DNA of 64,000 bases. Source: Lepidodermella squamata (taxonomy: Eukaryota; Animalia; Gastrotricha). The stretch lies in NCBI GenBank assembly GCA_047495785.1, contig JBLDXI010000010.1:186001-250000 (forward strand), written 5' to 3'. Below the pieces are notes generated by a model. It ran no database searches. It worked only from the letters and a program-made list of their open reading frames with translations, and was not told the DNA's origin. A program made the position numbers and the translations under genes. Shown here one piece after another: positions 32,356 through 52,043 of the stretch (its first letter is position 1; every line of letters begins with the position of its first letter).

Positions 32356-32965
32356 TTAATTTATTTTGTTTAAAAAACCTTAGACACAAATCAAATTTCG
32401 CAGATGGTAATGACCTTACTTGTGTCACTATTAATACTAGCTTCAATTTGTTTAAAAAATCTACGTCTTCGGATGGCTCGGACGGTGTGTTGCTAAAATC
32501 GCCGCGGCGATGCATGCAGGTCAAATTGAAATGAATAAACAAATCAGTAGTTTATTAATTAACGCCTAAAATATGTTAAAAACTGTAAATATTGACTGCG
32601 CGAGTATCAATTCAACGGTAAAGTCTTGCAGCTTCATTCAAAGCTGTCCAAACTACAATTTGATTGCTGCTGAGAGTTCACATCCACGCTTTTCAACTGT
32701 TACTTCTTTTGTCATTACATAGCATTACTCTTTCTCCGTGACTCAAACGTAGACTCGGCTGCTTAGCAGAGTCAGTTAGAAATGTGATTCATTGCTGAAT
32801 GCAAGGTATCGCCTGATTCGAGCAACTTGCAACCTTTAGGTGTACTGTGATTGAAATTGTCAAGAAGCTAGTAAGGTTTAGCACATTTTTTATTAGACAA
32901 GTCAGCAGTTGGGGTGTATACAAGGTGTGCTGTAGCAAATCACTTGTGGGAAGAAAAAGCGTTAA

Positions 32966-33367
32966 CCCTTAGCCGCCGAAGACGTGTACACGCGTTAATT
33001 CCGGAGAAAATTCACCGTGGTCGGAGGATTTGGGCTATTGAACCTATTGTCGCGTCATAAATTATGATAAATCAATAGCAAGAAACAAGCACTCCCCGAA
33101 AATCCAAATTTTCAAAGCCATTCCGACCAGGTCGAAAATAGTGAGAAAATTTTTAAATGACTTGTTAACACGTCATGAAAACGCGTTAACACGTCATAGC
33201 AACGGCAGCCCAGGTAAATTTCGTCTGAAAAAGAGGTTCGGCTTTCAATCTAAGGCTAAATGTAAGACTTTCTGCCGACTCGGAATTTGATTTTAGCCTC
33301 TTCTTGATTTTCTGGGATTTTCTGAAAGGTGCTCGAGTTAACACGTCATTGCGCCGGCGGCTAAGGG
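32966..33367. mobile_element. piggyBac-type MITE (402 bp)
   Basis: TTAA on both sides and perfect 13-bp TIRs CCCTTAGCCGCCG/CGGCGGCTAAGGG. Confidence 0.9.
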
Positions 33368-33714
33368 TTAAGCGTGAACAAATCCATAGTTGAATGCGCC
33401 TGCATGCAGGCAGAAAGTAAGCAGTTGATATTCGGTTTACAACAACATTTCCACAAATGCCTGCATTCTATTGAGGAATAAGCAGCTAGGGCGTGTATAA
33501 TATGGTTGACTACAGTTGACTAGATGATATGCATAGTGACAGTTAATTGGCCGTTTTCGTGAGTCACGCGGCTTGACGCTGCAATCGTAGCTGTTGCACC
33601 TTTTCGCGAAGCTAGATTCTGGCGTAGTGAACCTGAGCTCCCCTGATCTCTCCACTCTTCCGGCAAATTCCCGCCAAGCCACATTCTTTATTGCTAGCGG
33701 TGTAGAAGAACCCC

Positions 33715-34401
33715 TTGCAAGATGTCCTATTAAAACAAGCCTCCGCGCAATCCGACACTGCGGTTGCTCTGACAAAATCAAGGGGCTTACGCGTCGATGG
33801 CCCTCTGCTTCCGCCACGTGGTTCTAGTGGTACTGGCGACTCAAATCGGAGTTATGGATCCCCTCATGAACAGCAGCTCACTCGATTTCAACGAGCGCAC
33901 TACACATTGGCTAAACAGTCGGTAACGAGCTGTAAAGATCCCAACTTTGTCATTCTGCGCAGAAATCGCGACGAGAACAGCACCCTTGATCTCGAGTTCT
34001 TCGTTGGTCATGCAATCGAAATGAACAAGCTCTTCTTCACACGAAAAGGATTATATTTATCGGTTCGAGAACTGCGAATGATTTACGAGAGCATGCAGGT
34101 GGAAGGTGGATGGGTTGACAAGATAAAGCAAGAGCTGAAACAGCCGCGCGGAAAGTTTTGTAATGGACCTAAACATCTCATCGGAGGGATGATTCATGCA
34201 AGAGTTTTCCGCCCAACTGGATCACAGCGCGCCTATGTTGATATCCGCCTTTACGTGAACAATCGAAACAATCAAGCCGAACAACAAGAGCCACAAGAAA
34301 ATTCGAGTGACTTTTCGCAGGACGGATTTTGCGCATCAGATGTGGTCTTTCTGGAGCTCCAGCACATGATTTACTACATGCTGTCGAACTTGAACGAATA
34401 G
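33715..34401 (+). CDS. Tandem PC4-like ssDNA-binding/coactivator protein (Polinton accessory gene); start uncertain
   Basis: Two PC4-like segments: LDLEFF..FTRKGLYLSVRE and RAYVDIRLY..SQDGFCA. Confidence 0.55.
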   Translation: MQDVLLKQASAQSDTAVALTKSRGLRVDGPLLPPRGSSGTGDSNRSYGSPHEQQLTRFQRAHYTLAKQSVTSCKDPNFVILRRNRDENSTLDLEFFVGHAIEMNKLFFTRKGLYLSVRELRMIYESMQVEGGWVDKIKQELKQPRGKFCNGPKHLIGGMIHARVFRPTGSQRAYVDIRLYVNNRNNQAEQQEPQENSSDFSQDGFCASDVVFLELQHMIYYMLSNLNE

Positions 34402-34530: not shown

Positions 34531-35337
34531 TTACATAGTCAATGGCAGGTTCAGATTTGGTACATCATCCACTTTAACAAAGACGTTGCCGGTGCGGGTA
34601 CCGATAAAATTTCGAAATCGAAGTAACGGCGGGCATGACGCTGTGTTATCAATGAGAAGGTAACCAAATGGAACGCTTGAAGCAAGGTCGAAACTTTCTG
34701 AATCATCAAAGAAAAAGTCCAAATTAAAATGATGAGCAAAGCAAGGATCCTACCTTGCAAGAACCGCCAATCCTTGGGCATAATCTGACGTGCCAGGTGA
34801 GAAAATTGTGTCATATCGCAGGGTGAACGGAACACAATAATGTAGCGAGCGTTCAGAGTCAGGTCGCGAGAGAACTTCCCTCTAAGTAAAGAAGAACAAA
34901 ATGAGATAACAAGGAACGATTAAAGGGAGAGATAGTGAAAACCTGGGGAAGAGGTTATTTTGGGCCATGATAACACTGATCTGGCTGTGATGAGATCCTC
35001 GGTAAAACAATTCAGCAACCTGTTTCATATCTTTTGCATCGCTGTAGTTATCGTCAAATATTATTAGTTTGTGAGCCCCTCCTAAATAGTCAGCTTCATG
35101 AAATGATCCAATGTCGTCGCGAAATTCGATGGGAACGCCACGAGCAAGCAACACCTGCTGACTGAGCTCAGCATGTCCAGGTTGAGCAATTCCTCTGAAC
35201 CAAACTATTCTATCCAAAGGTTTGTCGAAAGATTCGGGATAAAGCAGAATGTCTTTAATGAGTGTCGATTTTCCACCCTGACTCGGGGCGGAAAGGATTA
35301 TAGTACAAGGTGATTGAAAAGCCGTTGTGAAGCTCAT
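34531..35337 (-). CDS. Polinton A32/FtsK-like packaging ATPase; introns 34882-34942 and 34698-34753
   Basis: Walker A APSQGGKS, Walker B LIIFDD. Splicing gives NLFPRGKFSRDLTLNARYIIVFRSPCD and FLQESFDLASSVPFGYLLID; 690-nt spliced CDS. Confidence 0.92.
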
Positions 35338-35348
35338 AGCTACTTGTT

Positions 35349-35858
35349 TTATTTTTCAAATCGCTTCTTTTTATAGTGATCTCTCACAAAGCTAAGAACA
35401 AAGGCGTCATTCTGCTGCCTAGAATTTCTGCCGTGATTAGTGATTAAGGATACAATATTAGGTAAGGAAACACCACGTGCCGACTGATGAAGGAACACCA
35501 AGCAGTATAAGCCACAGTGAATGCTGTCGTAAGCCTGAAGGCTACGGTGGTTATGTGATCGCAACTTTCGCCCACAGTTCGCCATATTACTTATGAAATG
35601 CTCGATCCTAACAGACCAGCTACTGGATTGTTGGCCGTAAGAGTCCATGAAGATGATCGATGAATCGGTAACATGAAGAGCAATCCAATGTGACCCTGCT
35701 GACGAGCTGGGCGAGGCGTTCACAATCAGGAACAGAGGCTTTTGCGACGAGCCAAGATTTTCATAATAGGCAAGCGAGTCGCAAGGAATAGTAGCGAAAA
35801 TGCCTTGGCTAATAACTGGGTCCGAGGCAAGAAAAGCGGTTAATTGATTCGTATTCAT
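35349..35858 (-). CDS. Adenain-like maturation cysteine protease (intronless)
   Basis: GSHWIAL, FMDSYG and LQAYDSIHCGLYC catalytic motifs; the ATG overlaps the MCP stop (TGATG). Confidence 0.9.
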   Translation of the reverse strand: MNTNQLTAFLASDPVISQGIFATIPCDSLAYYENLGSSQKPLFLIVNASPSSSAGSHWIALHVTDSSIIFMDSYGQQSSSWSVRIEHFISNMANCGRKLRSHNHRSLQAYDSIHCGLYCLVFLHQSARGVSLPNIVSLITNHGRNSRQQNDAFVLSFVRDHYKKKRFEK

Positions 35859-37185
35859 CAGAAAAAGTTGTGAATGACAGTGCGGTTCGACTGGAGCTCC
35901 ATCACCCGGTGTTTATACTGCATTACGGCAATAAGAGTTGCCGGGTTCGGCAGCTTTTTGCCGAAAACTAGGTTAATTGCCATCTGACCCGTGGTAATAA
36001 GGCGGCCATTCGGGTCGTTGTCCAGTGACAGCTGAAATGCGAGCACTGTGCCACCACCTTTAACAAAATCGCCCCTACTAATATTGACGCATTTCGAATT
36101 CGAATCGGGGAAAATGGTGTCTTGCATTAGTTGATAAGCCCTAGCGCAATCTAAAGTACCAAAGTTCATGGCCAATGGAGTGCCACCCACAGCTTTCCCA
36201 TCAATTGTTATCGTTATATTTTGAAGGTCAAAATGTTGAAAGTTGAAAGGGTTGGCTGTAGCCGCTCCCTGAAGAGCTGAATCCTCGACCATAACTAAAT
36301 TTGGAATGATTTAAATTAAACATGAATTCCGAGCCGAAAACTTACCTAAAATGAGCTTTTCCGGAATCACACCCATGACTACATTGTTGAGATGGATTGA
36401 TGTCATGTTAGTGGGCAAATTGAAAGGTTTGGCCAGGGTATGGTTGAAAATGTACTTTGCAGGGGTTTCAACTAGTGCTCTCTCCAGAGCCATCGTTACC
36501 TCAGGAACAACTTCGACACGTTTCACCAACAAAACAGCTTCCAGTAGTTTGAACTCGTAATCTTTCAGATCATCAGACATCAAGAAAAAATCCGGTTTAT
36601 GCATAGTTAACTTGATTCGAACACTCGTTTGGGGGATCAAATATTTCTCCTGATTGAAGAAGTCCGTTTGAATTTTCCCGCATAACGAGATAACGGGGTT
36701 CTTTTCTATATCATTGACAAGGCTTAGTCGCTGCACGAAGCCGGAATTAGGTGCCTTCAACTGGTCGAAAGATCCGAATGAGTCTGGATGCCACGCAACG
36801 TTACTCAACTTGGCATTTTGCACATCTTCCGAGGCCGAAAGTAAATGCTCAATGTACGCAGAAATCGGATGTAACGAGGTGTTTTGCGTTATCAGATTCT
36901 CATTCACGTAAACGTGGCAATCGGAAAACATTGAATTTAAAAAATTGTTAACAGGCGCACAACAAAAGTTGTTCTTTGTCATGCCGGCAGCAGTTGAAGT
37001 GATTGAGGCTTTGATGGAAAGGTAAGTATGACTGAGGTCGGTGCGGGGATCGTAAAGGTGATTTGTTGCGCGCCCGAAATGGATGCCATGGGATGGCACT
37101 CCGTGGTGTGAGTACCAGTGACCTCATTGGTGACAGGCGGGGAAGCGAAAATAGCCAACTCTGCCCTAATTGCGTGATCAGACAT
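35858..37185 (-). pseudogene. Double jelly-roll major capsid protein; intron 36295-36345; frameshift at ~37045
   Basis: AELAIFASPP, TDLSHTYL, PVNNFLNSMFS, DFFNQEKYLIP and spliced KLILVMVEDSALQG..NPFNFQHFD. Confidence 0.88.
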
Positions 37186-37240
37186 TGTAAATTCTCGGAA
37201 TAATGTTTTATTAATAATTCATCGCCTTATATATATCAAA

Positions 37241-37654
37241 TCAGAACAGAATGCGCGTAGATTTAGCTGGCCTTTTCCCACGCTTAAATTTTCGTTTGCC
37301 GGAACCGTACTGACGAGCTAGGTGACTGATTGCATCCTTTCCTACTGTTTTTAGGCCTTCCATACCTCGATTCTTGAAAACTTCCGCCATGTTATATTCA
37401 GTTCCAGCTTGCTGCCGCTCAGAAATATCCGAAGCAATGTTTGTCGCTGTTGAAGCAGCTGAAGTGAAAAGTTTAGGCAGAAAAGGTATTAAAGTGTGAC
37501 GAATAAAGCTGCGGATATATGTTCCCAGTCCATTTCCAACTTGAGGCATCAATACGATGGATGGTCCACTAAACGGTTGTATACCGCTTCCGCCTCGTCC
37601 AGTTTGGCTAATGAACCAGTTGTAGTAGGCATCGGAAGAAATGGGTGCTCGCAT
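37241..37654 (-). CDS. Putative Polinton core/membrane-active precursor protein with adenain-type cleavage sites
   Basis: QTGRG, QVGNG and QYGSG sites; amphipathic GLGTYIRSFIRHTLIPFL; basic C-terminus. Confidence 0.65.
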   Translation of the reverse strand: MRAPISSDAYYNWFISQTGRGGSGIQPFSGPSIVLMPQVGNGLGTYIRSFIRHTLIPFLPKLFTSAASTATNIASDISERQQAGTEYNMAEVFKNRGMEGLKTVGKDAISHLARQYGSGKRKFKRGKRPAKSTRILF

Positions 37655-37657
37655 TGC

Positions 37658-38780
37658 TTAGCGACGAATGGGCCGAATATGGATGGTGACAAGAGATTTG
37701 CCTTCCTTATATACAACTTTCTGTCCCGAGTCTAGGCACATCAAAATTGAAATAGTATCCACAAATTGAGTGCGAACAGGGTGATAAAACGGCATTGAGC
37801 CAGCAAAACTGGTCATGCTGTATTTTGTGGCGGAAGCTGAACCCGAAGCTGGAAATACGCGGAGTAATGGTACAAATTTGTCACCACATATTGTGTGTTC
37901 AATCAAATCGCTATAGCAATAAACCAAAGGGCTGTGAAAATGGATCTGTGGCTTGAACTCGGAAAAAATCGGAATCTCATCGTACGTCGGGCGGTAATTT
38001 ACTGCAGCTACCAACTCTGATTCACCACTTTCATTTTTCCGATGCATGTTTAGTCTCAACTTGCCATCGTCACAGTCCTGGTAAGTCGGAATCTTACCGT
38101 GGGCCATTGGCATCTTTGAGCCTTCCTTCCCCGGCAAAATAAATCGCAACATGTGACTAAACAGCGATAAAAACTCGCGCTCATGGCGTATAGAGTCTTC
38201 CAACTCAAGATCCTCGTCATGTGGCGGAATATTCAGCAAAAGAGTCCCACGCTCAAACCCTAGTATTTGAGCAATAAACTCGGGTAAATAGAGACCACAG
38301 CCAGGTTTTAAGTTGAATCTAATACGACTCCTTGATTCCTCATGACTCAAAGTCATGCCGCTCCAATCGGGGAATTCCGCTGTCATATGATTCAGAAAGT
38401 CGTCCATGGTTTCGTAAATTCTGCCGCCAACAGTACATTGCGAAAATTCTTCCGGTGTGTCAAACGGTGAATCATTCAAATTCCCACGCTCGAACCATGA
38501 CGTTTTGAACAAATAGAAATGAGATTTCTTAATGGAAATCACTTGAGAAGGTGTGCAGACTTCCAAAAGCGCCGCTTCATGGCTCCCTATGCATCCCAAA
38601 TCTATGAAAATCGAAACATGGTAAGAACAAAATAATAATATTTGAATCCGCCATACCGATAATTTCCGGGAGCTTGACTTTAAATTCTGCCGCATTATTG
38701 TTGCTAAAAAGATCCATTGACGCGTGAGAAGGAAGTGTCAAAATGAGATCTTTGCCGTAATAATTATTTGCTGGAAGCAT
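37658..38780 (-). CDS. Minor capsid (penton) protein; intron 38602-38656
   Basis: LTLPSHASMDLFSNNNAAEFKVKLPEII|DLG..HEAALLEV; C-terminal YCYSDLIEHTICGD..PLLR and VTIHIR; 1068-nt spliced CDS. Confidence 0.88.
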
Positions 38781-38985
38781 TCGTGGTTGTCGATTGATAG
38801 ATTAGCGGATAAAAAAACCACGTCAATATCAGCAAAATTAAGGTAAGGGTAACAGTCGTAATTTGTTTCGTTCGTTTAGACAAGGAACTGGCAAAGCTTG
38901 GGGATGGTTGCAGCGGCGCAGGCAAAATTAGTGGTCTCTGAATGTGAGACAGGTCAGGAGACGAAAGTGAGTGCATTTTCCCCAA
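38764..38985 (-). CDS. Possible small membrane protein between integrase and penton
   Basis: One hydrophobic segment; fills the intergenic gap; no recognised homology. Confidence 0.25.
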   Translation of the reverse strand: MGKMHSLSSPDLSHIQRPLILPAPLQPSPSFASSLSKRTKQITTVTLTLILLILTWFFYPLIYQSTTTNASSK

Positions 38986-39003
38986 CCTGATTTACTATCC
39001 TTT

Positions 39004-40051
39004 TTATATTCTTTGAAGCTCGAAATTATAGAACACACGATTCAACTGTTTTCCTTGCCCCTCCGGTTTCACTCGATAGGCAACAGTCGAATTTCCATTT
39101 TGAGGAATAACTTTTGATACGAGATAGATTTTCTCAGAAAAAGTAGGGTTCTTCACACGATTCTTGAAAGTTGAACGTTTCTCCATAATACGAACGCGAT
39201 CACCGACCTTGAATTGAACCCGAACTGATCGAATATTCGAGAATATAGTTTCAAAGGCCAGGAAATTATCAAAATGCTCATCATAAACAGTCATTAGTCC
39301 GGGCTCTGAAAGTTCCATGTTCAGTTTGGGAGATGCGCCCAAAGATTATTCGGACTCATTTGAGTAGTTGAATTTGGACAAGAGTTGATTGAGTGAAGAA
39401 AATCACCCAATTTATCGATAAATTTCTTGGTATTGTTCGCCATCAGGTAACGAACAATCCGCATGCGAATATTGCGGATAAAAGTTTCGATTGAGCCGAC
39501 CTTTTCGTTGACTCGGTTAGGTAAAAATGCGAATGCAATTCGTTTTCAATGTAGTTTCGAACTCGCTTGTCCTTGAATTCTGACCCTTTGTCAGTAATGA
39601 ACTGATGTGGAACTAAGCCAACGTCTACCATTATCTCCTTCAATGCAGATAGAACCACCGCCCCAGTTTTATTACGAAGAACTTTTAGCCAACATTTGCG
39701 TGTGTATAAATCTTTTACACATAAGATGTATTTTTGACGCCTATTGTTAAATTGGTACTCCTTGGTAATTTCCAGCAAATCAGCAGCAAAGCAGGAACCC
39801 TTGGAGTAAACAGCCACTCGGCGGAAAAGCTTTCTATTTCGCGTTGAAGCTTGTTTAAACCGAGAATAAGCCGGTTGTTTAGAGAGCCATTCTCTGACTG
39901 ACTTGTACGTGATCAAAGGATTATTTGGATATTTTGAAACTGCAGCATCATATAAAATTTTTATAGAACGGAAACTGCTAGGAAGCTCAGGCGAGTAGTA
40001 CAATGGGTGTAGAATATCATCAAGCTCAACAATTTCGACATCGGAAGTCAT
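39004..40051 (-). pseudogene. Retroviral-like (rve) Polinton integrase; frameshift at ~39510; probable intron 39306-39355; no chromodomain
   Basis: LYYSP..SF, FAADL (D), ITDKGSEF (D), KVGSIETFIRNIR (E, in the shifted frame), spliced TQMKPGLMT, FKVGDRVRI, FYNFELQ. Confidence 0.88.
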
Positions 40052-40073
40052 TATCACAAGTAAAAATGAATTT

Positions 40074-43000
40074 TTATTGTTTATAACCGAATGGGATGGT
40101 TTCAAAGGTTGCAAAGTTCGAGATTACTCGTTTTTGAAATTTGAAACTAAGTGTTTTTATAGTATTTTCAATGGCAACTTTTGCATACGGCTTGCAGTGG
40201 AATCGGCGCCAGACTTGTTGTTCAAGCTCTAGTCGTGTCTTCTCACCACCGCAGTTGACAGATTTCAGGATGTTCATAAAGCTTTGGAAATTCGTACGCT
40301 TTTTGAGCGCGGAAGTCAATTGAAATCCTTTCATCCTGATGCATGTGTTGCCCTGGGATGTTTCGTACATGTAGGTTTTTGGGGCGAGTCCGATAAACCT
40401 GAAATATTATTCCATGAAAAGCTGTTCAATTATAAAAACAAAAAAAATTGACTCACTTGGTAATATGTTCATTTGCATTTAATTCCGGTTTCCATTCCCC
40501 AAGAAAATTGCCAACATGCAACGGCTGAGGTCCTCCAGGTCGCTCGACGTAAATGCAGGAGTCTGCGAAGATATGGTGAGATTTAGCGTCAGCAGATCCT
40601 ACCCTGAGCTTCACCTGAGTTTCAGCTAACCTACCCTGAGCTTCCCCTGAGCCTCAGCTAATCTACCCTGAGCTTCCCCTGAGCCTCAGCTACCCTAACC
40701 TGAGCTTCCCCCTGAGCCTCAGCTACCTTAACCTACCTTAACATGAATCCTAATGATAGGATTCATAAAACCGAATCACTTCGCACTGGTTCAGATCCAA
40801 TGCTAGGCGAAGTTCTGTTGTGGTAACGAAGATTCGGTAGCATCGCTCGTCATCGGAGTGAGTACACTCGGCCTGATGATTCATCTCCATACAGGATCTA
40901 CAGTTGCCTACGATATAATTGTTTAATTTTCGTGAGATTTGAGATAAAAATTTATTACTTACCGAACTTCAGGTACCCTTGAGAGGTGCGATATGCCAAT
41001 AATGGGATGAAAACATCTCTTCGCGGCAAGATCAACACGTGCGTTAACCCGAAAGTCGGTGTAATTGTTGAGTAGAAATGAGCGCGAAGTTCCAAGTGGT
41101 TATTTCGCAGTTTCAAAACGTCCTCATTGACCGGTCCATAAGGTAAGAATACGTCATAGTAACCATCCTCTTGAGATCCGATCTTGCCACTCAAAATTGC
41201 TGGGTAGAGGCTTTTTAAGGTCATATTTACACACGAGTTTTTTTTTTTAAATTATCATTAATTTAACCTATTTACGTCGAGATACTTGATCTTCTGGTCG
41301 GGTGACGAGGAAACGTCGTAAAACAGGCAAAAACTTTCGGTGCGGCCACCCATGAAACTATCACGTGGTAACGCCCTAGAATTCTCAGAATAAGAGACAT
41401 TTTAAAAATTACACCTTAATTCTTACCTGTCAACAATGTCCAGGGTGCGTTCAATCTCCCCGGTCAGTACCGCATCGTCGCTCATGGCTTTCTTGGCTTC
41501 GCACGCCCAAATGCTGGTCAGATTGTATCCTGCAGCGCGAATTGCACCATCGCGTTCTTCTGTATCCTTGAATAAGAACCCAAATGATACTTTCCGGACA
41601 GGATGAATTTTATTGGCCGCTTCAGGAAAGCACCTGGTAAAAATTCAGAAATGTTTTGATTTTAGCTTGTAAGTGTTTTTTGACATACTTCATGCAGCCA
41701 TGGCAAAAACAGCCGTGGTACATGTACACCTCGAGAATCTTGTTGTTTGCGTCGTAAACAACCCCGTCAGGGTGGAATCTTCGGAACTTGGAATTCTCAG
41801 GGAGTTTTATACACAACTCCCCATTTGAGTTGGCTGCATGTTGAATGCGTTTCCCGGTTTTTCGAGCCACGAACTCGAAGTAAACAATAGATTCCCGCGA
41901 GTAATTCGCCCTAAAAATTCCCATGACTTACATTTTATTTGTTTTTCAACTTCAGGATTAATTCATACCCCTTCGCGTAGCCAGTGTTTGGAACAAGGTG
42001 AATAGGTGTCGCAGGATCCAGGTAGAGGAAGCGCCAAATGAAATTCGAAAGAGATGCCAGGGTTCGAACCTCTGAAAGTTATACGAATGAAAATAAAGAT
42101 CCAGGCTGATTTTATAATCATACCCCATATAGCGTCGATGCCTTCCGGACACTTGTCGTCTCGGGTTGTGAATTCTCGCAACACCGATCGGAACTTGATT
42201 ACAGCTCTATGCAGCAAATTTACATCGGACTGGCAGTAATTAATCAGCTGATTACGAAGGTGGAACTTTTGATGCTGATTTTCAGCTAAGAATTGTTGCA
42301 ACTCAGCGAGTTTTGAATCCGAAAGCCGGTTTGTGTCATAGTCATCCAAGGTTGGGAAGTCTCGCTCGTTATCGGAAAGGAAATTCGCTGATGTCAGCAA
42401 TTTATAGGGAAAAAATTCCTTTCCAGTTGCATTCGCATCCTCATCCAGACCGAAGCAGTGGAAAAGCGAAGCCAACGATGACATGGAGAGGAGGTAAAAG
42501 TCTCGAAATACGATTGCTTTTTTCTCAACAGATAGCTCGATAATTGTGTTATTTTTGTAAATATGATCGAACTGATAATCGTGCTGTTGTAACCATTTCA
42601 GGACCATAAAATTATCGAATCTATAGCGAGATTAAATTAAATTTTCGAAATCTAACTCTTCGATTTTCCCACCTTGAACCATTATGAGAGAGAAGTAAAA
42701 TTCCAGAATACTTTTCTCGCAGCAAAAATTTCATAAACTGGTTTACACAGGTGGAATCCGCACCAGTTGAAACGAAGATCTGCTGGCGCGGGTCGTCACC
42801 AGTACACGATTTGGGACACGTTGCGGTGACAAGCATGTGTTGACACGAGTCACAAAACATGTTCAACACTATCACGACTGGCACTAGTTCTCCGGTTTCC
42901 AACTGAATTGTTTCGGTATCCCAAGCTCCGGCAATTCGCAGAGGATCTTTGCGAAGCCTGCCTGGTTGAATGACACAGCTGTGTTCCTCGTCACCCTCCT

Positions 43001-43810
43001 CCGAGCTTATTGGCCCGTTACAAGTTCGACACGTCCGAGATTGACCTATAGTCACATTGTAGCAAAAATTAAGGTGGATTTTTTCACATTTCATCAACTC
43101 ACAGTTATGTTTTCCCTTTTGCGCTATCCCAATTTTCCTACCGCACTTGCCGCACATGAAGTAGGACTGGCAAATGGTCGCAGCTCCGAGTGTTTCAGGT
43201 GTCTGGTGATTCATGAACATAGATATAGTTCAGTAGAGATCGCCCACTCGCGTGAAAAAGGGTGTACGCCATGGGCGCCAGATGGTTAGCTGATTCATCA
43301 GAGGCTTGGAGGCCAAGTAAACAAAATATTCGATTCGTTTTTTGTCGGTTCCGATCGAAATTTCTCAATTTCTCAATTTTCGTTGATGGTTCCAGATAGG
43401 TGACATTACAAGGAACATGCTGGTTATTTTTTCATGATTTTTAACTAAATATGGACCACCAAAATCAAAGAAAAATGATTTTGCGATTGGAAATAAAATG
43501 AATTATCACCAGTAGCGGAATCGAAATTGAAGCAGTTTTTTAGTGGTCCGTGTAGCACAGATCGAGCTCTACAATGTGATACTTGGAGCGGACTTGGATG
43601 AATTTTTATCAATTTCTCTACCAAACCTTCGAATTGCGAATTAATTTTCGATAAAAGTTCCAGTATTTCCAAGCCGCTTTCATCATCCTCATCGGCGTCG
43701 TCTTCAAATCCAAACCCTATCTGATCTGAAGGATCGATCGCTTGCGAGGAATATTTGAAAACGTCCATCTTGAATCGCGGAGAATAGCAGAAAAACCCGT
43801 GAAAATCCAT
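40074..43810 (-). pseudogene. Protein-primed family B DNA polymerase with 9 complete introns; motif B region deleted; 5' end degraded and uncertain
   Basis: Spliced motifs WDTET, HNGSR|FD, YCQSDV, TLASLS, HGCMK|CF, PRDSFMGGRT, YLDVNS|LYP, F|GNCRSC, |DSCIY, GNFLGEW, K|FIGLAPKTY, MKGF, TIPFGY. Confidence 0.92.
40598..40742. repeat. ~33-bp tandem repeat with telomere-like subunits at the pPolB deletion
   Basis: About 4 units of CTACCCTGAGCTTCCCCTGAGCCTCAGCTAA, then CCTTAACCTACCTTAAC; adjacent hairpin at 40743-40766. Confidence 0.85.
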
Positions 43811-44227
43811 TTTTCACTAATGAAGATGGAAAATAGTTGCCCGATTTTCACGAATAATGATAATAAATTGGGTTCGGCTAAAAACTCATAGGGATATAAT
43901 GCTCATTTGAAAACTGTCAAGTTTCATTCCTCGAGAACGTTAGCTTATTTAAATGACTTTTCAACGGTTTACTCGTTTCCGAATGATGTCTCCAAATTCA
44001 TATTTTTATTGCATATTTAGCAACTGTTTATGAATTTTTATTGCTGATCAGCACGCGTTGTAAAGGTCTCCGCACAAACTCTGCATGAAATAAGTAGACA
44101 AGTTTTGCGTTAAGTTTTTTGCCTCGCTCGCATGTTTTAAGAAAAACATATCACATACGACCGATTCACAAACTCTGAATGCGTAAGCGTTATGTATTTT
44201 TGCAACGAGGCCTGATCGCTTAAAAAA

Positions 44228-44303
44228 GTCGTGTGGTGAGCGGGGTTCGAACCCGAGCCTCCCATCGTCGAGGCCAGTCAATAACCAACCTCGCCACAAC
44301 GAC
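44228..44303 (-). ncRNA. tRNA-like Pol III unit 1 (not a canonical tRNA)
   Basis: A box TGGCGAGGTTGG, B box GGTTCGAACCC, GTCGT/ACGAC terminal stem, immediate T6 terminator. Confidence 0.55.
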
Positions 44304-44582
44304 TTACGCAAACAGTGAGATAATTTCTCCGGTTTTAATCGTGCCACCATCACAACTCTGCGAACATTGAAGTTGAAAATATTAATTATTATGACTAATT
44401 GAATAATTATCAAAAACTCGATGGAAATTCAGGAAAAAATCATAAAAATTCCCTGTACCTTTTTGGGATAAATAAATAAGAAATTTTAAGTGCTCTATAA
44501 ATAATTACCAATTATATTAATTAATAATTGTATCACGATGCGTGATCCGTCAAGTACTGATTACTACAACTCGAAATCATGC

Positions 44583-44658
44583 GTCTTGTTAGTGTAATCG
44601 GTGTTATGCCGATCTCACAAACAAGTCACCCGGGTTCGATCCCCGGTCAAAGCAAGCC
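44583..44658 (+). ncRNA. tRNA-like Pol III unit 2 (not a canonical tRNA)
   Basis: A box TAGTGTAATCGG, perfect T arm CCGGG-TTCGATC-CCCGG, CTTGT/GCAAG stem, T6 terminator; anticodon stem does not pair. Confidence 0.55.
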
Positions 44659-45465
44659 TTTTTTAGGTGACAACGCCGTTCAGCAAAAACATAACGCATA
44701 CGCATGCAGAGTTTGTGAATAGGGTCCGTATGTGGTCGTATGTTTTTCGTCGTATGCGTAAGTAATTGGCCGTATGCGTAAGCAAAAAAAAAGATACGGA
44801 GTTTGTGCGGAGACCTTAATAAAAAGCGACCCGATTTCAAGTGTTTCTCAATTTTTATTACAATATCCGCACATTAAATCGCGTACAATCGGGTTGCTTG
44901 AAAACTTTTATTACTTAACGGCGCACCATATTGACACATGTCATCGGGCAGCGTCTAAGAAAAAAAAATACAATGAATTTTGATTGATTTATGTCTTTAA
45001 GAACTTACACTTTTCCGGATCCTGTTCCATATATGATCTGAATGAATGAAATGGAAATTTAGCTATTTTGAATTAAATGTAGTCATGAAAAATCATACCT
45101 GAGGATCCCATCGATTTCCAGTGTGTGTAAAACGGTCTATTTCTAATTTCTATGAATAACTTCGTTCGAGCAAACTGCGACGGAATGTGATGATTCCGTC
45201 AACATTAAAGGCATTGGCGAAACAGTACAACGATGAACTTGAAATGTGGATAACTGCTCCAGATTAGAATTGATTCCCCAGAGTTTCATTGCGAAATCTT
45301 AATTTTTATTACAGCAGTTCTTCTTTCCATAGCATCGGAACAGCCTAAGATCATAGACGCTAAATTTAAGAATAAATGTACGCAGTTTCAATGGCATGCT
45401 ACTACTACATAGTAGCATGGACGTAGGCTATTAACATTCAGTCGAGTGTGTGTCGCGTCCAATTT

Positions 45466-45921
45466 TTATTTCTCATATAGTATCGCATATAATATAGTTT
45501 CAAGCTGCGTCAGAGGTGTAGTTAAATCTTTAATGCCAGTCACTATTATCCACCCCGACGAAAATACATTCACGCATGTTGAACCATTGGTCAAATTTTT
45601 ACACCGCAGTGCCGGAAATCTAGTATTATCATATATCACTCGCGCACAGAGTTTGGCAACACGAGCTATTAAGGCCTCAGTTATGTTTATTCCAGTTGGC
45701 ATCTTTCCCGCAAGAGTACTGTTTACCAGGCGAATCTTAGATACCTTTATGGCAGTGTTGTCTTGTCGCTGTAGTTTCCTTGCCAGTTTTCGCCCATAAA
45801 TTTTTGCCAGTTCAGGATTCTTCGTAAAAAGCACTACTTTCCCGTTTTTAAATAGCAAAGCGTTGAAGTGCGGCTCTTTAATGACGAGAGCATTTGGAAA
45901 CTTTTGTTTAAGCTCAACCAT
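45466..45921 (-). CDS. Divergent TATA-binding-protein-like protein inside the Polinton; true start may be upstream
   Basis: Two TBP-like repeats: KFPNALVIKEPHFNALLFKNGKVV and VNSTL..INI..YDNTRFPALR..VNVFSSGWIIVTGIK. Confidence 0.75.
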   Translation of the reverse strand: MVELKQKFPNALVIKEPHFNALLFKNGKVVLFTKNPELAKIYGRKLARKLQRQDNTAIKVSKIRLVNSTLAGKMPTGINITEALIARVAKLCARVIYDNTRFPALRCKNLTNGSTCVNVFSSGWIIVTGIKDLTTPLTQLETILYAILYEK

Positions 45922-46528
45922 TTTGAAGAGGTGAATAATGCCGGCAAATTGAAATTGAATATAAATTAGCCTTGATTTTGTCTTGTATGTATCTTATATT
46001 TTTATAAAGCTATCCAGCTTGTCAACAATTGCTGTTGCCTAAAAAATTGTTGTTACATCACTACTACACTATCTGCACTCGTAAAAAGCAATTTTTGTTA
46101 TCATTTGCCAATGTCCTATTCATCTGTAAACTGTCCTGCAATTACATGTTTCACTTTCAAAGTACCTCTTGTCAAGCTGCCCTCTTCTGGGCGTTAAAGC
46201 TTATAAATAAATAAATAAATTCCGGAGATCAAATTGTACCCCCAGCGAGAGTGTGGAAACAACATTTTGCACGGTAACATCAATTTCAAGCATTTAATAT
46301 TCCAAGAAAAATGAGAAAATGAGTTGACATGACGAATTTACTTGCTTTTTATTACATTCTACCTGTTAACGACTTCTCTGCATATACATTGTATAAATGG
46401 TGCCGAGATGCAACGCTCAGTTTTTAAAAATAATTTTTTGGCGAAATCTTACAAAATTTATATCAACTGTACAATACCTTGTCATATTCTTACGCATCAT
46501 TTTACTTGGCAACTTTACTTATCCTGAA

Positions 46529-46760
46529 ATGGCTAATCCTCAAATAGCTGAAATTTTCTTTCAACTATTTGTAAACCTGTAAGTATTTAATGTCAAAAAA
46601 TTCAACATACCTTATATTTTTTTCTTTCTTCAGCTACGACGAGGCAGGTCAAATGTATGATCACTTGCAGAACTCAGTAGCCAGCTACAACACTATCATC
46701 CAGATATTATGGGACATTCACGGATTACTCGTACCTCATCCTCCTCCACAGCCCCCCTAG
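46529..46760 (+). CDS. Possible small two-exon accessory gene (intron 46579-46633)
   Basis: Consensus GTAAGT..TTTCTTCAG 55-nt phase-2 intron joins MANPQIAEIFFQLFVNL to YDEAGQMYDHLQ. Confidence 0.35.
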
Positions 46761-47467
46761 TCCTCCTGTGGAGGAGGAAAATGCCAACTGGTGACCTGTA
46801 TATAAAAAAAAATAATCAACATTATTACAATATTATTAAACATTATATTAACCTTTGTATTTCGAAATCGCTATCGAAATCTAATCGAAGTAAATGTAAA
46901 GATTGCACTCCATGGCTTTTCTCAATCCAAGGATACAAATAGAAAATGCAGTCGAGTTTCACTAACTGTTTTATGCTGAAATGTCTTTCATTACCAGAGC
47001 GGAATCTACACATATGACGAAAAGGTTGAGTCCGCATTTATTATCATAGCAAGTTGCCGTTATCTCAAGCTGACATTTTAAGAATATTCGCAGCTGACCG
47101 TTGGCGAGACATAAAACGTGACAATTCCAGAGGGTACTTTCACTCTTGCAAGATGACTCATGCATTGGTTACTTTTGCGTCACATGCCCATTACATTTTA
47201 GAAGTTTGAATTTATGTATGCCGGAAGAGTCAAGGTCATATTTTGGTATTTTGGCGCTGAAATAATGGTTGGCGGGAAAGTTTCAATTTTCCTTTTCAAA
47301 AACTAGCGAGTGACCGTAGAAATTTAAAAAATTCAAATTTTGACTAGGGTTTCGGCGGGAATATCGTGTCTCGGAATTATTTTGACGCTAATATTTTCCG
47401 TCAAGGTCAAATTTTTGCCGGGAAAATTTCAAAATATTTTTCCGTTAGGAAAATCAATCGATATCGA

Positions 47468-47931
47468 TTAGGGTTAGTGTTAATGATTATGGTTAAACCC
47501 TAGGGTTAGTGTTAAGGATTAGGGTTAAGCCCTAGGAATAGTGTTAAGGATTAGGGTTAGGGTTACGCCTATTTTGGCGGGAAATTAATTCAAAATCAAT
47601 CAATATCGGTTGATCGATATCGGTTATCGGCTAGGGTTAGGGATTATCGATTAGGGTTAGGGTTAAGGATTAGGGTTAAGCCCTAGGGTTAGTGTTAAGG
47701 ATTAGGGTTAAGCCCTAGGAATAGTGTTAAGGATTAGGGTTAGGGTTACGCCTATTTTGGCGGGAAATTAATTCAAAATCAATCAATATCGGTTGATTGA
47801 TATCGGTTATCGGCTAGGGTTAGGGATTATCGATTAGGGTTAGGGTTAAGGATTAGGGTTAAGCCCTAGGGTTAGGGTTAAGCCCTAGGACTAGGGTTAG
47901 GGTTAAGGAATCCAGTTAGGGTTAGGGTTAG
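47468..47931 (+). repeat. Degenerate TTAGGG telomere-like array with a 183-bp internal duplication, in the Polinton terminal region
   Basis: Many TTAGGG/TTAAGG/TTAGTG units; 47498-47680 repeated from 47681; CCCTAGGG palindromes. Confidence 0.9.
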
Positions 47932-47988
47932 CTCAAGGTCAAGGTCGCGCGGGAAAAATTCAAATCGGAAAAACCGTTAACTTTTCCT

Positions 47989-48016
47989 CCCCCCCCCCCC
48001 CCCCCCCCCTACTACT
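47989..48016 (-). other. Polinton terminus: 5'-AGTAGTA followed by a long G run on the minus strand
   Basis: Plus strand reads C(n)TACTACT; (AGT)n ends are typical of Polinton TIRs. The next 6 bp, CATGGC, would be the TSD. Confidence 0.7.
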
Positions 48017-48262: not shown

Positions 48263-48742
48263 TCGGGGCGTAGCTGAATGAAAGCATATCAGCAACAAAA
48301 TCAACATAGATGAAGATTCCAAGCGGGTGAATTTTCTTCGCTTGAGCAGTTCGACATGTCAGTCATCTTCGGCCAAACTATGCGACCGCAATAATATTGA
48401 CTGTGAATTTTCATATTTCTTTTCTTTAACCACGAAGAAATTTACTCCTTCACACCGTTGAAATAAAATCAAGTGTCGTATTGATTGCATAAACTCATGC
48501 TTTAACAACCTATAAAATGACCTTACTTGTGTCACTATTAATACTAGCTTCAATTTGTTTAAAAAATCTACGTCTTCGGATGGCTCGGACGGTGTGTTGC
48601 TAAAATCGCCGCGGCGATGCATGCAGGTCAAATTGAAATGAATAAACAAATCAGTAGTTTATTAATTAACGCCTAAAATATGTTAAAAACTGTAAATATT
48701 GACTGCGCGAGTATCAATTCAACGGTAAAGTCTTGCAGCTTC
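48263..48742 (+). repeat. Right, uninterrupted copy of the 480-bp direct repeat
   Basis: Matches 29687-29975 plus 32445-32635. Confidence 0.95.
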
Positions 48743-49556
48743 CTGCAGTAAGTTCCTGGATTTTCGAGGTATTTAACGCCCGCAATCTCGAGGCCTAAAG
48801 AAGTAAAAGAATGAACACTTTCGGGAAAATTAAGGTGCTAATGACTGTCGAAAATTTTTTTAGAAAAAATGTTGTTGATGTTATTGAATTTTCGAAGATC
48901 AAGTGGCTTTTCCGGACAAGTTCTGCCCGACATAGAAAGTGCCAAAAAACGCTGGCATTATCGCCATTTGCTGGAAATTGCTGGAAACAAATAATAATTG
49001 AGAAACAAATCGCAATTATCACATTTTAGCTCAGCTGGTCCGATCTTCGCATAGCAAAGCTAAATTTTCAGTTTATCAGTTTTACGTGGATTCGGCTCGT
49101 CAAATAATCTCCTTTCGTCTACTCCATGGCTTGATTCCATGCTCCATTTATCCTGGAGTAATAGTACATGTCTATTCCTCCAAGCCATTTATGGGGAGTA
49201 AAACGAAAAAAATTTAATGTGGATTTCGAAATGCGGGTGATTTGTATCAATGTATCAGCAAAACACTTCAGTGAAACGACAGGATAGCATAACAGCGGGC
49301 CGATTTTGATCATGGCTTCCTCCATCAGAAAAATGCGGTTTCGTTAACGTTGACCGACTTGTATTGCCCGCTGGGAAATATTTCGCTGATTCATTTTTCT
49401 TTTGAATCCTGAAATTTCAATAAAGCGGACGAAGAGGGAGCAATTAAAATTCTTATTACTTCGACATCATTTAGACTTTATTTAGAATGGCGGCTTCTTC
49501 AAGGTTTATTATTTTTGTTCACTGAGATAATTTTCAACACTGTTGCAACAACTTGT

Positions 49557-49572
49557 GGCCCTGAAAAGGGCC
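49557..49572 (-). promoter_or_regulatory. Histone 3' stem-loop of H2A
   Basis: GGCCCTTTTCAGGGCC on the minus strand. Confidence 0.92.
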
Positions 49573-49611
49573 GGTTCATGCTTTTGAAAAGCTGCGATGA
49601 TTGTAAGTCGC

Positions 49612-50055
49612 TTATTGAGACTGGCTCGCGGCAGCCTTCTTCTTGCCACCAGACGCCGGCTTGGCAGCAGGAGCCTCGGCGGTCTTCTTTGGCAGCAAAA
49701 CGGTCTGGATGTTAGGCAGAACACCACCTTGAGCAATCGTAACATGCGACAGCAGCTTGTTCAACTCCTCGTCGTTGCGGATCGCCAGTTGGATGTGGCG
49801 GGGAACGATGCGAGTCTTCTTGTTATCACGAGCGGCGTTGCCGGCCAACTCGAGCACTTCAGCAGCGAGGTATTCCATGACAGCGGCTAGGTACACAGGT
49901 GCACCCGCGCCGACACGCTCGGCGTAATTACCGCGCTTCAACAAACGGGTAATACGACCAACCGGGAATTGGAGCCCGGCACGCGATGACTTGGTCTTCG
50001 CCTTCTGGCGGTTAGCCTTGCCTCCCTTACCACGACCAGCAGCTGGAGCGGACAT
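49612..50055 (-). CDS. H2A: Histone H2A with an extended tail ending ASQSQ
   Basis: [43 protein letters not shown]. Confidence 0.97.
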
Positions 50056-50427
50056 GTTTTGATGTTTTAGTATTGAAAGTGAGAAATTCCTCAAATTTAA
50101 ATGAGCACGAACACTAAAAAATGGTAAATTTTCGCTCAAATACCTCGCATCGGCATTAATTTGAGCGCCAAATTTGAAATTTTATGTTTACGATATAATT
50201 AGCCAATAAACGATCGAGGCACGTGCTCTAATAATAATCCTCGCAATTTTATTGGTTGGAAGTGAGCGCGCGGGTGGCAATAAAAACAAAGCACGTGTGC
50301 GCGCGCTAATTCTGTCGCACTAATGCCACGTGCCACGTTTAATGTTTCACGATTTTCACAAACACTGTTCGGAAAAGCTAGTAAATACACGCATTTTTCA
50401 CCTTGCTAAAATCAATCATCTTCGATA
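50056..50427. promoter_or_regulatory. Bidirectional H2A/H2B promoter
   Basis: 372-bp gap between divergent histone genes with CCAAT (~50203) and ATTGG (~50251) boxes. Confidence 0.6.
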
Positions 50428-50802
50428 ATGTCGCCTAAAGTCACTGGTAAAGTTGCTTCGAAGGGTTCGAAGAAAGCCGCCAAGCCGAAGACCGCTGGCG
50501 AGAAGAAAAAGCGCCATCGCCGCCGCGAGTCGTACAACATTTACATCTACAAAGTGTTGAAGCAAGTGCACCCTGACACCGGCATCTCCGGCAAGGCTAT
50601 GGCCATTATGAACTCGTTTGTCAACGACATTTTCGAGCGCATCGCCCTCGAGTCGTCGCGCCTGGCTCACTACAACAAGAAGGCCACCATCAGCAGTCGA
50701 GAGGTACAAACGGCTGTTCGTCTCCTGCTGCCTGGTGAGCTTGCCAAGCACGCCGTCTCGGAAGGCACCAAGGCCGTCACCAAGTACACCAGCTCAAAAT
50801 AA
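50428..50802 (+). CDS. H2B: Histone H2B
   Basis: [40 protein letters not shown]. Confidence 0.98.
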
Positions 50803-50845
50803 GCTGCCTTGAAGACATCAGCACCGTCTTCTTACTGTCCGAACC

Positions 50846-50861
50846 GGCCCTTTTCAGGGCC
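50846..50861 (+). promoter_or_regulatory. Histone 3' stem-loop of H2B
   Basis: GGCCCTTTTCAGGGCC. Confidence 0.92.
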
Positions 50862-52043
50862 ACAAGTTGTTGCAACAGTGTTTTCTTTGTTCTTTGTTTT
50901 TAAATAAAAAATTGTCATGGAAAATTTTATTGACAAGGAAGGCGAAAATAAAAAAGAAAAAATAATGTTCTCAAGATGGCATCTTCCCTTGGACTCGCCC
51001 TCCAAGCCAAGATGAGTAATCTTAAAAAACCTCATGCGCTAATTTCACACGGTTACCAAGCTATCGTTGCTCAAAGTTGAACAAGTGAAAAATAAAAAAC
51101 CCCTGGACGGGGATAATCTCTTTTTCGCCTAACTTAAATATGTGGTTATTTATACAGAAGTGTAATTTTGAAAAATTTAATCCATGGTGTTGGATCAGGA
51201 GCTCCAATTGTATAAATAAGTTTTAAACTTTTACCTCTTAAATGAGGGAAATGAATAAATGTGCGTGGATTCCAATTTCAGAACCAGTCTTTTTCTTTTA
51301 ATTCTCACGCCATAATATTTTTGTCCGCTAAAAAAATTAAGGCAACGACGACAACCCAATCTAAAAAGTATTACCACCGTAAAACGTGCGAATCCTTTCT
51401 GAAAATCAATAACTACCTTAATGTTCACATTAATTCATGGGATTTTTTCGCACATGATTCATGTCAACCTTTTGTAATATGAATAATATAGTACTTAAAC
51501 GGAAAAAATCTCATGAATTCATGTGACAATTCTAGCATATAGATGGTCTCAAATGCAAGCGACGATATCGCTGTGGCTGTGCGCCAGAACGCCTCGCCTA
51601 TAATAAAAACGGCGTAGAACTAAAGTTTTGCTATGCTAGCCAGATCGCTGAACGCCGCCGTTTTTTGGTTGTTTAGATAATGTCCAACATTTCCGGCATT
51701 GAAATTTGGTTTTTAGACTCGACCGTAAACCTTCGTTCTACCTATCTTTCGCACATACAAGCAAAAAACTGATGATCACCGATTTGGCTCGCGATAATAT
51801 TCAATTTTTTAATTTAAATGTAAATTTTGCAATTTAATTTTTAATTAATTATCATTTTGTAATTAGGCGCCGAAGAGGCAACCGAAATATGAGCAATGAG
51901 ATTGGAGCAAAACGAGAACTGTCGGATGCGAAAAATCGCACATTAATGAATCCACCTTTATAAAACTCCGCTAAAAAATCCGCTTATCTCGTTTTGCTCT
52001 CTTGCAAACATCCAGTCTGCGCATCAAAAGCGTTACCTACGCC

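What the first reader, a model, noticed from the sequence alone, without database searches (positions are those of the whole stretch)
45466..45921. TBP-like gene carried by the Polinton, next to the Pol III-like units
Seen: a 151-aa ORF with two TBP-like repeats, very divergent from cellular TBP, between pPolB and the terminal repeat. Known: TBP serves TFIID and TFIIIB, and large nucleocytoviruses encode TBP, but it is not a Polinton core gene. Inference: with the PC4-like gene and tRNA-like units, the element may carry a small transcription-redirecting module.
Basis: partly seen in the sequence, partly recalled or inferred. Interest (0 to 1): 0.75.

Follow-up and report, generated by a model that had tools for sequence, protein, structure and literature searches.

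The report
Polinton's own TATA-binding protein gene
A virus-like Polinton element in an animal genome carries a divergent TATA-binding-protein gene, broken in this copy by an insertion, and has TATA boxes in front of most of its integrase, capsid-type and packaging genes, so intact copies likely use this one protein to switch on their late genes with the host's RNA polymerase II.

Summary
The ORF is real and TBP-family (Pfam 7e-12; saddle fold), but it is only the 3' part of a ~182-codon gene. A 24-codon first piece lies at 46222-46293, and a 280-nt insertion with a (TAAA)n tail splits this copy; contigs of run X1 join across it. It keeps four intercalating Phe, two Asn and the host-type basic patch, but one of two TFIIB-contact acids and a near-invariant Gly are lost. 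TATAWA boxes sit 32-59 nt before 6 of 7 late-block starts (0 of 3,000 shuffles), not before TBP or pPolB. Similar TBPs lie beside Maverick genes in nematode-type loci. The tRNA-like units sit in a separate 755-bp palindromic repeat, and 'PC4-like' was not confirmed, so the Pol III module is unsupported. In a likely-RNA run the gene lies inside a 1,266-nt intron. Best reading: a one-gene late switch for host Pol II (0.55); host TBP reading those boxes is not excluded. A TBP label appears in a Starrett 2021 figure legend, and this scan noted TBP-bearing Polintons in other genomes.

The parts
45466..45939 (-).
   Evidence: Pfam TBP; AF2 pLDDT 87.7 with 91-row alignment; Foldseek and VIA top hits all TBP
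46222..46293 (-). 5' piece of the TBP-like gene (24 codons from ATG; first strand with the lobe-1 Asn)
   Evidence: read through with X it adds 24 bits on a eukaryotic TBP profile, 0 of 200 shuffles reach it
45940..46219 (+). 280-nt insertion with (TAAA)n tail that breaks the gene in this copy; likely a 5'-truncated retroelement
   Evidence: X1 contigs join across it; many high-depth contigs with other flanks lie on it; ends are not GT..AG
44835..47330 (-). spliced, polyadenylated transcript; introns 46796-46852, 45345-46610 (holds the TBP gene), 45038-45098, 44955-45008; 5' end not defined; no long ORF
   Evidence: four GT..AG joints and a poly(A) loose end at 44835 in run X2
44063..44817 (.). 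755-bp imperfect palindrome (MITE-like) whose arms each hold a tRNA-like unit; nested repeat, probably not a Polinton gene
   Evidence: arms 77% alike over 122 nt, 19-nt perfect ends; high depth and foreign flanks in X1
44226..44305 (-). tRNA-like unit A (box A-like, box B, T6)
   Evidence: fold z -4.4; no ARAGORN or Rfam hit
44580..44665 (+). tRNA-like unit B (box A, box B, T6)
   Evidence: fold z -4.7
40074..43768 (-). pPolB, in pieces with predicted short introns and a repeat near 43265-43590
   Evidence: PF03175 E 4e-13; predicted GT..AG introns; depth peak
39004..40051 (-). integrase (frame breaks near 39.5 kb); TATAAA at 40080-40085
   Evidence: PF00665
38766..38976 (-). small ORF with a hydrophobic segment, unconfirmed as a gene; TATAAA at 39003-39008
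37658..38780 (-). putative minor capsid gene (label from a recalled N-terminal motif); no box within 100 nt
   Evidence: no Pfam hit
37241..37654 (-). putative pX-like core protein (label recalled); TATATA at 37708-37713
35858..37185 (-). putative major capsid gene (label recalled; frame breaks near 37.05 kb; one predicted intron); TATATATA at 37228-37235
   Evidence: 32% identity over 205 aa to unnamed P0160
35349..35858 (-). adenain-type protease; TATAAA at 35912-35917
   Evidence: PF00770 E 6e-6
34551..35337 (-). packaging ATPase with a predicted intron; TATAAA at 35370-35375
   Evidence: 25% identity, E 4e-5, to A32-type ATPases of L003 and L005
33907..34401 (+).
47989..48016 (.). right terminus: C-run followed by TACTACT
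   Evidence: match to the Polinton end motif is recalled

Best explanation
This Polinton carries a divergent TBP gene, broken in the window's copy, and intact copies likely use the protein as a one-gene late switch that would bind the TATA boxes found before the integrase, capsid-type, protease and packaging genes and recruit the host's RNA polymerase II machinery. Shown here: TBP family and fold; four Phe and two Asn kept; five of five basic helix-2 residues kept; one TFIIB-contact acid kept as Asp and the second changed to Thr; boxes 32-59 nt before 6 of 7 late-block starts and none before TBP or pPolB; no TFIIB-like gene detected in the part of the element held. Inferred: TBP and pPolB are made first from TATA-less promoters; the element's TBP then binds the boxes and docks host TFIIA/TFIIB, perhaps outside TFIID; skipping of the 1,266-nt intron that holds the gene would limit TBP output in the integrated state. 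The window's own allele is probably non-functional.
For: Pfam TBP; all 44 Foldseek matches at E<=0.001 head a list of TBP chains, next unrelated row E 6e-3; VIA Z 12.5-14.5 for 38 TBP entries, next row 7.8. Residue table, read with Ravarani 2020 (PMC7221094, sections 11-13). Boxes: 6 of 7 starts, 0 of 3,000 dinucleotide shuffles (mean 0.25, max 4); 6 of the 7 minus-strand box sites between 34.5 and 40.1 kb are these. Four boxes overlap the coding end of the upstream gene. Recurrence: multicopy divergent TBPs named from Heterodera, Globodera and Meloidogyne; in 6 of 6 fetched loci the TBP is next to a PAZ-like gene, in 4 of 6 near an A32 ATPase, in 2 of 6 next to pPolB; they share the Asp-x-Thr stirrup change. 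X2 contigs cover much of the TBP frame. Precedent: herpesvirus TATT-binding protein (PMC4893493, abstract).
Against: The boxes are canonical, so host TBP can read them; I had no TBP-less Polinton as control (one search found none). The 30-65 nt window was fixed after seeing the data, and one of the six starts is an unconfirmed ORF (5 of 6 without it). The protein lacks a lobe-1 Gly present in 45 of 46 comparison rows, has Phe in place of the preceding Thr, and has Arg at a stirrup position that is hydrophobic in most eukaryotic rows. The second TFIIB-contact acid is lost, and its mutation lowers transcription in human TBP (PMC7221094 section 13). The window copy is interrupted and the element has other breaks and no left end. 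Kinship with the nematode-type TBPs is not resolved (support 79/80, long branch; AU test does not reject grouping with canonical TBPs, p 0.234), and profile scores favour the eukaryotic set (76.9 bits) over the nematode set (69.0). The good AF2 model was built from an alignment of TBPs, so it is not independent; the single-sequence model was poor (pLDDT 48). X2 contigs give no strand and may be unspliced intron.
Confidence: 0.55

Rival explanations
1. Host TBP reads the TATA boxes, and the element's TBP is a decoy or repressor: its intact basic patch would soak up TFIIA, Mot1, TAF1 or Brf1, or it would sit on TATA boxes without passing on to TFIIB.
For: Basic patch fully kept (5 of 5) while the TFIIB stirrup is half lost and a lobe-1 Gly is missing; boxes are canonical; PMC7221094 section 12 describes the patch as a shared, competed surface.
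Against: All DNA-contact Phe and Asn and the Arg-contacting acid are kept; the nematode-type Maverick TBPs keep the DNA face and the Asp in most rows but mostly lose the patch (1-4 of 5), which points to DNA binding as the shared function.
Confidence: 0.2
2. The gene is a captured passenger that is now decaying and has no role in the element's cycle.
For: Insertion in this copy; two one-residue deletions in lobe 1; frame breaks in other genes; phylogenetic position unresolved; no close relative among 1.84 billion representatives (best E 3.8e-9, 32% identity).
Against: At 28% identity to canonical TBP the frame has no internal stop in either piece and all six core DNA-contact residues survive, which implies long selection; X1 carries it uninterrupted with one substitution in the 3' piece; TBP recurs in other Mavericks.
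Confidence: 0.12
3. First reader's module: the TBP serves Pol III (TFIIIB-like) transcription of the neighbouring tRNA-like units, with a PC4-like cofactor.
For: Units have box A/B and T-runs and fold well; unit A has a terminal stem; the kept Asp and basic patch are compatible with Brf1, whose partner residue for the lost acid is variable (PMC7221094 section 11).
Against: Units lie in the two arms of a 755-bp palindrome with its own inverted ends, much higher X1 depth than its flanks and foreign flanks; PC4 label unconfirmed; internal-promoter Pol III genes need no TATA box (established knowledge).
Confidence: 0.07
4. The right-end segment has been co-opted by the host, which expresses the TBP variant for itself.
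For: X2 shows a spliced, polyadenylated transcript over this segment; X1 word depth there (234-314) is above that of the element core (145-200), a weak hint of an extra copy.
Against: The window's allele is interrupted; the gene is still inside the element's terminus; depth in contigs is no copy number.
Confidence: 0.06

Closest known systems
TBP-labelled gene on MELD viruses with adintovirus-like PolB (Starrett et al. 2021, PMC8502044, Fig. 5 legend; I read passages and section 3.4, could not see the figure)
   Same: A TBP-like gene on a Polinton-class element.
   Different: Only a label in a legend in a section on non-animal datasets; no residue, promoter or function analysis in the text I read. 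Which element bears it is not stated in the text.
Cellular TBP (PF00352; e.g. PDB 7o4i_O, 1cdw_A, 1ytb_A)
   Same: Two-lobe saddle, four Phe, two Asn, basic helix-2 patch.
   Different: 28% identity; no N-terminal extension; second stirrup acid is Thr; lobe-1 Gly missing.
TBP-TFIIB pairs of large dsDNA viruses (Ravarani et al. 2020, PMC7221094, sections 9, 11, 12)
   Same: Virus-encoded, divergent TBP with the DNA face kept.
   Different: Those viruses almost all encode their own TFIIB and lose the eukaryotic N-lobe patch; this 14-kb remnant shows no TFIIB and keeps the patch, so it would rely on host factors.
TATT-binding protein of beta/gamma-herpesvirus late pre-initiation complex (Gruffat et al. 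2016, PMC4893493, abstract only)
   Same: A viral TBP-like protein proposed to direct host Pol II to late genes.
   Different: Herpes late boxes are TATT and the factor is part of a larger viral complex; here the boxes are canonical TATA and the protein is a bare TBP core.
Divergent multicopy TBPs of tylenchid nematodes (e.g. P0008, P0019, P0075; loci L001-L006)
   Same: Maverick gene neighbourhood; Asp-x-Thr stirrup; shared stretch after the third Phe; introns appear to split pPolB there too.
   Different: At most 33-34% identical; gene order ATPase-PAZ-TBP-pPolB instead of terminus-TBP-pPolB; basic patch mostly lost; common origin not shown.

Membership tests
TBP family (PF00352) | Two TBP repeats above the curated cut-off | tested here: met
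   45.4 bits vs 22.9, two stretches; 5' piece completes lobe 1
TBP family (PF00352) | Saddle fold | tested here: met
   pLDDT 87.7; Foldseek E 1e-8, TM 0.70; Z 14.5, rmsd 3.4, 150 aligned; model built from a TBP alignment, so not independent
TBP family (PF00352) | Four intercalating Phe and two central Asn | tested here: met
   lobe-1 Asn lies in the 5' piece
TBP family (PF00352) | Binds TATA DNA | not testable with these tools
   needs a binding assay
Canonical eukaryotic TBP | Both C-lobe stirrup acids (C.L3.2, C.L3.4) | tested here: not met
   Asp at the first, Thr at the second (PMC7221094 section 11)
Canonical eukaryotic TBP | N-lobe helix-2 basic patch | tested here: met
   5 of 5 positions K/R
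Canonical eukaryotic TBP | Thr-Gly at the end of lobe-1 strand 5 | tested here: not met
   Phe and a gap; Gly in 45 of 46 comparison rows
Recent host TBP retrocopy | High identity to canonical TBP and placement among canonical TBPs | tested here: not met
   28% and 26% identity to two canonical-type rows; tree placement itself inconclusive; the host's own TBP was not available
TRF2/TLF | Loss of most intercalating Phe (recalled) | tested here: not met
   all four kept; no TRF2 sequence was in the tree
Polinton/Maverick | pPolB, rve integrase, adenain protease, packaging ATPase | tested here: met
Polinton/Maverick | Major and minor jelly-roll capsid genes | tested here: inconclusive
   no Pfam hit; one unnamed relative P0160; labels rest on recalled motifs and gene order; not folded
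Polinton/Maverick | Terminal inverted repeats at both ends with target-site duplication | tested here: not met
   only the right terminus is present; read as a left-truncated copy
Large-virus TBP-TFIIB system | Co-encoded TFIIB homologue | tested here: inconclusive
   0 of 79 open frames hit a TFIIB family, but the left end is missing and a divergent or spliced gene could be missed
Herpesvirus late vPIC | TATT late boxes | tested here: not met
   boxes are TATAAA or TATATA
tRNA genes (the two units) | Cloverleaf recognised by ARAGORN or Rfam | tested here: not met
   0 hits
Internal-promoter Pol III units | Box A, box B, T-run terminator (consensus recalled) | tested here: met
   transcription not tested
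PC4/Whirly family (ORF at 33907-34401) | Profile or fold match | tested here: inconclusive
   no Pfam, PHROG or PDB hit; Atlas lead 0.84 only; not folded

The most novel reading that the evidence does not exclude
Several animal Polinton lineages run the smallest known early-to-late switch: one bare TBP that keeps the host-factor surfaces, acts on TATA boxes written into the coding ends of upstream genes, and is itself gated by alternative splicing, since its whole gene can be removed as an intron while the element is latent.
Probability: 0.25. Interest if true: 0.82.

Novelty: new variant of a known kind. Interest (0 to 1): 0.56.

Why it matters
How integrated animal Polintons, which encode no RNA polymerase, time their capsid genes was not addressed in the papers I searched. 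A single TBP plus matched boxes gives a concrete, testable model and a natural TBP variant that separates the TFIIA/Brf1 surface from half of the TFIIB surface. It also suggests that many 'extra TBP paralogues' annotated in cyst and root-knot nematode proteomes are Maverick genes rather than host factors.

Tried and rejected
No whole genome is held, so copy number, synteny in other copies and the host's TBP could not be examined. Word-index search with the single ORF found nothing; three scans of viral contigs found no relative or control element. Single-sequence AF2 model was too poor to use. No RNA holder is on record; X2 is only guessed to be RNA, though its four GT..AG joints fit that. X2 has almost no cover over the element core; this is no evidence on expression. 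Rejected: that the 280-nt segment is an intron (ends are not GT..AG); that the 18 codons upstream of the 3' piece are the gene's start (they come from the insertion and add nothing to profile scores). The 5' piece did not raise the score on the nematode-type profile (69.0 vs 69.0; 2 of 200 shuffles reached it), only on the eukaryotic, archaeal and pooled ones. In one search two start coordinates were 1-2 nt off, so its '5 of 156 non-start ATGs' probably includes two true starts; one search uses corrected starts. Host ORF starts showed 0 of 12 boxes in the same window, a weak control because several may be internal exons. E2F-like motif count is not significant window-wide (11 vs 6.3 expected, 6 of 100 shuffles). 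Trees left out P0016 (careful tree) and most near-duplicate rows; no animal TBP, TRF or large-virus TBP of known name was in them. Complex prediction was not run: no host partner sequence was available. Paper searches gave only the Starrett legends for Polinton plus TBP; term searches in PMC10748475 (text and one supplement), PMC11161782, PMC12220804 and 10.64898/2026.10.13.758929 found no relevant TBP or TATA mention. Figures and bioRxiv supplements could not be seen and may name TBP-bearing elements; subscription papers are not searched.

Full report
Observation. The ORF at 45466-45921 (-) is there and matches Pfam TBP with two stretches, E 7.1e-12. By sequence its best solved relatives are archaeal and eukaryotic TBPs (E 1.6e-5 and up), and 10 of the ten best Atlas hits with a family share TBP (0.96). 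A single-sequence model was poor, but with a 91-row alignment the 157-residue piece folds at pLDDT 87.7 and matches TBP chains at Foldseek E 1e-8 and Z 14.5, rmsd 3.4 over 150 residues. That model leans on an alignment of TBPs, so it confirms compatibility, not independent identity. In the viral structure library the named top hits are large-virus TBPs.

Setting. The window looks animal (histone pair with a stem-loop of the recalled metazoan type, SOCS box, 7tm hit); I did not determine the taxon and no genome is held. From about 33.9 kb to 48016 lies a Polinton: pPolB, integrase, adenain protease, an ATPase related to A32-type ATPases and putative capsid genes (labels from recalled motifs). 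The right end is a C-run plus TACTACT; no matching left end exists and a PAN-domain frame abuts the left edge. Several genes have predicted short GT..AG introns. Integrase and the putative major capsid gene have frame breaks in this copy.

Contigs of run X1 join 45939 to 46220. The skipped 280 nt end in a (TAAA)n tail, carry many high-depth contigs with other flanks, and lack splice ends, so they are likely a truncated retroelement. Beyond them, 46222-46293 encodes 24 residues from an ATG that fit the first TBP strand. Read through with X, this piece adds 24 bits on a eukaryotic TBP profile, 13 on an archaeal and 11 on a pooled one (0 of 200 shuffles each), but nothing on the nematode-type profile. 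The gene is thus about 182 codons, a bare TBP core, and the 151-aa ORF starts at an internal Met. The window's allele is probably inactive.

Residues (read against Ravarani 2020, PMC7221094, abstract and sections 9, 11, 12, 13). All four intercalating Phe, the C-lobe Asn and Pro are kept, and the lobe-1 Asn is in the 5' piece. Of the two acids that contact TFIIB, the first is Asp and the second Thr, followed by Arg. All five basic positions of helix 2 are K or R. That paper reports that viral TBPs generally lose this patch and come with their own TFIIB; here the patch is kept and 0 of 79 open frames hit TFIIB. Against full function: a lobe-1 Gly present in 45 of 46 comparison rows is missing. 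Identity to a canonical plant TBP is 41 of 148.

Relatives. HMMER over 1.84 billion representatives gave 33 hits, none better than E 3.8e-9. Several belong to a multicopy family named from Heterodera, Globodera and Meloidogyne (207 hits with the profile, 120 listed). Six metagenome loci of that family were fetched: 6 of 6 have a PAZ-like gene beside the TBP, 4 of 6 an A32 ATPase and 2 of 6 pPolB, so these TBPs are Maverick-borne. They share the Asp-x-Thr/Ser/Cys stirrup in most rows. The tree puts the window protein on a long branch on their side with support 79/80 (74 in the quick tree), and grouping with canonical TBPs is not rejected (p-AU 0.234). One or several captures cannot be told apart.

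Cis-elements. Following a lead from earlier scan notes, I looked upstream of the element's genes. TATAAA or TATATA lies 34, 32, 59, 48-50, 59 and 38 nt before the integrase, a small ORF, the pX-like gene, the putative major capsid gene, the protease and the ATPase; the putative minor capsid gene, TBP and pPolB have none within 100 nt. That is 6 of 7 late-block starts, reached by 0 of 3,000 dinucleotide shuffles; six of the seven minus-strand sites in 34.5-40.1 kb are these. Four are written as Tyr-Lys codons near the end of the upstream gene. The distance window was chosen after looking, and one start is an unconfirmed ORF. In L001, L003 and L005 a TATATA-containing stretch also precedes the ATPase (by eye, AT-rich DNA, two loci nearly identical).

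RNA. Run X2 (kind guessed) shows four GT..AG joints and a poly(A) end at 44835 on the minus strand. One intron, 45345-46610, contains the whole TBP gene. Other X2 contigs cover 45317-45515, 45639-45919 and 46220-46349. Contigs give no strand or level, so these may be TBP mRNA or unspliced intron. The spliced form has no long ORF. I infer an alternatively spliced unit that either includes or skips TBP.

The two tRNA-like units are real sequence features but not tRNA genes. They sit in the arms of a 755-bp imperfect palindrome, 44063-44817, with 19-nt inverted ends; X1 depth there is about 860-3,700 against 145-314 on the flanking element, and a contig leaves at 44816 into other sequence. Depth is no copy number, but the structure and foreign flank fit a separate nested repeat. 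The PC4 label was not confirmed.

Mechanism and odds. Best: intact elements use their TBP as a late activator on these boxes with host Pol II factors (0.55). Rivals: decoy or repressor while host TBP reads the boxes (0.20), decaying passenger (0.12), Pol III module (0.07), host co-option (0.06). No binding or transcription was shown.

What is known. Starrett 2021 (PMC8502044; passages, section 3.4, one supplement searched; preprint 10.1101/697771, passages) lists 'TBP' in figure legends for MELD viruses. Viral TBPs are established in large DNA viruses (PMC7221094) and herpesviruses (PMC4893493, abstract). Eight searches and term searches in four further papers found no analysis of a Polinton TBP. 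This scan has 28 unchecked notes on TBP-bearing Polintons in at least 3 other genomes, none matching this sequence. Verdict: a new variant of a known kind, interest 0.56.

Noticed in passing
window 44063-44817: MITE-like palindrome whose two arms each carry a different tRNA-like Pol III unit pointing outward; parts are also held by runs X3 and X4 of other organism codes.
   Followed up: partly
window 47462-47931 and 47272-47956: Arrays of TTAGGG-like repeats (183-nt period) and four GCGGGAAA sites (E2F-like, label recalled) just inside the right terminus.
   Followed up: partly
window 34551-43220; L001, L004: Polinton genes appear to carry short spliceosomal introns (pPolB, putative capsids, ATPase); predicted from sequence, no RNA support.
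   Followed up: partly
window 46529-46760 (+): Possible 58-codon gene with one canonical intron, divergent from the TBP start and antisense to the spliced transcript.
   Followed up: partly
window 40598-40725: 32-nt tandem repeat, four copies, inside the pPolB region.
   Followed up: no
window 29687-32640 and 48263-48747: LINE (CCHC ORF1, endonuclease ORF2) with a nearly identical, internally deleted copy 16-18 kb away.
   Followed up: no
window 49536-50882: Divergent H2A/H2B pair flanked by perfect 42-nt inverted repeats that include the histone stem-loop.
   Followed up: no
window 32963-33372: Short TTAA-bounded element with inverted ends, high depth in X1, just left of the Polinton remnant.
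   Followed up: no
window 33615-33851 (-): PAN-domain frame (E 2e-6), probably a host exon, at the element's truncated left edge.
   Followed up: no
L001-L006; P0003, P0019, P0088, P0134: Nematode-type Maverick TBPs sit downstream of a PAZ-like gene; public gene models often fuse the two, or TBP with a thymidine-kinase domain. All six loci share a short motif just before the TBP start.
   Followed up: partly
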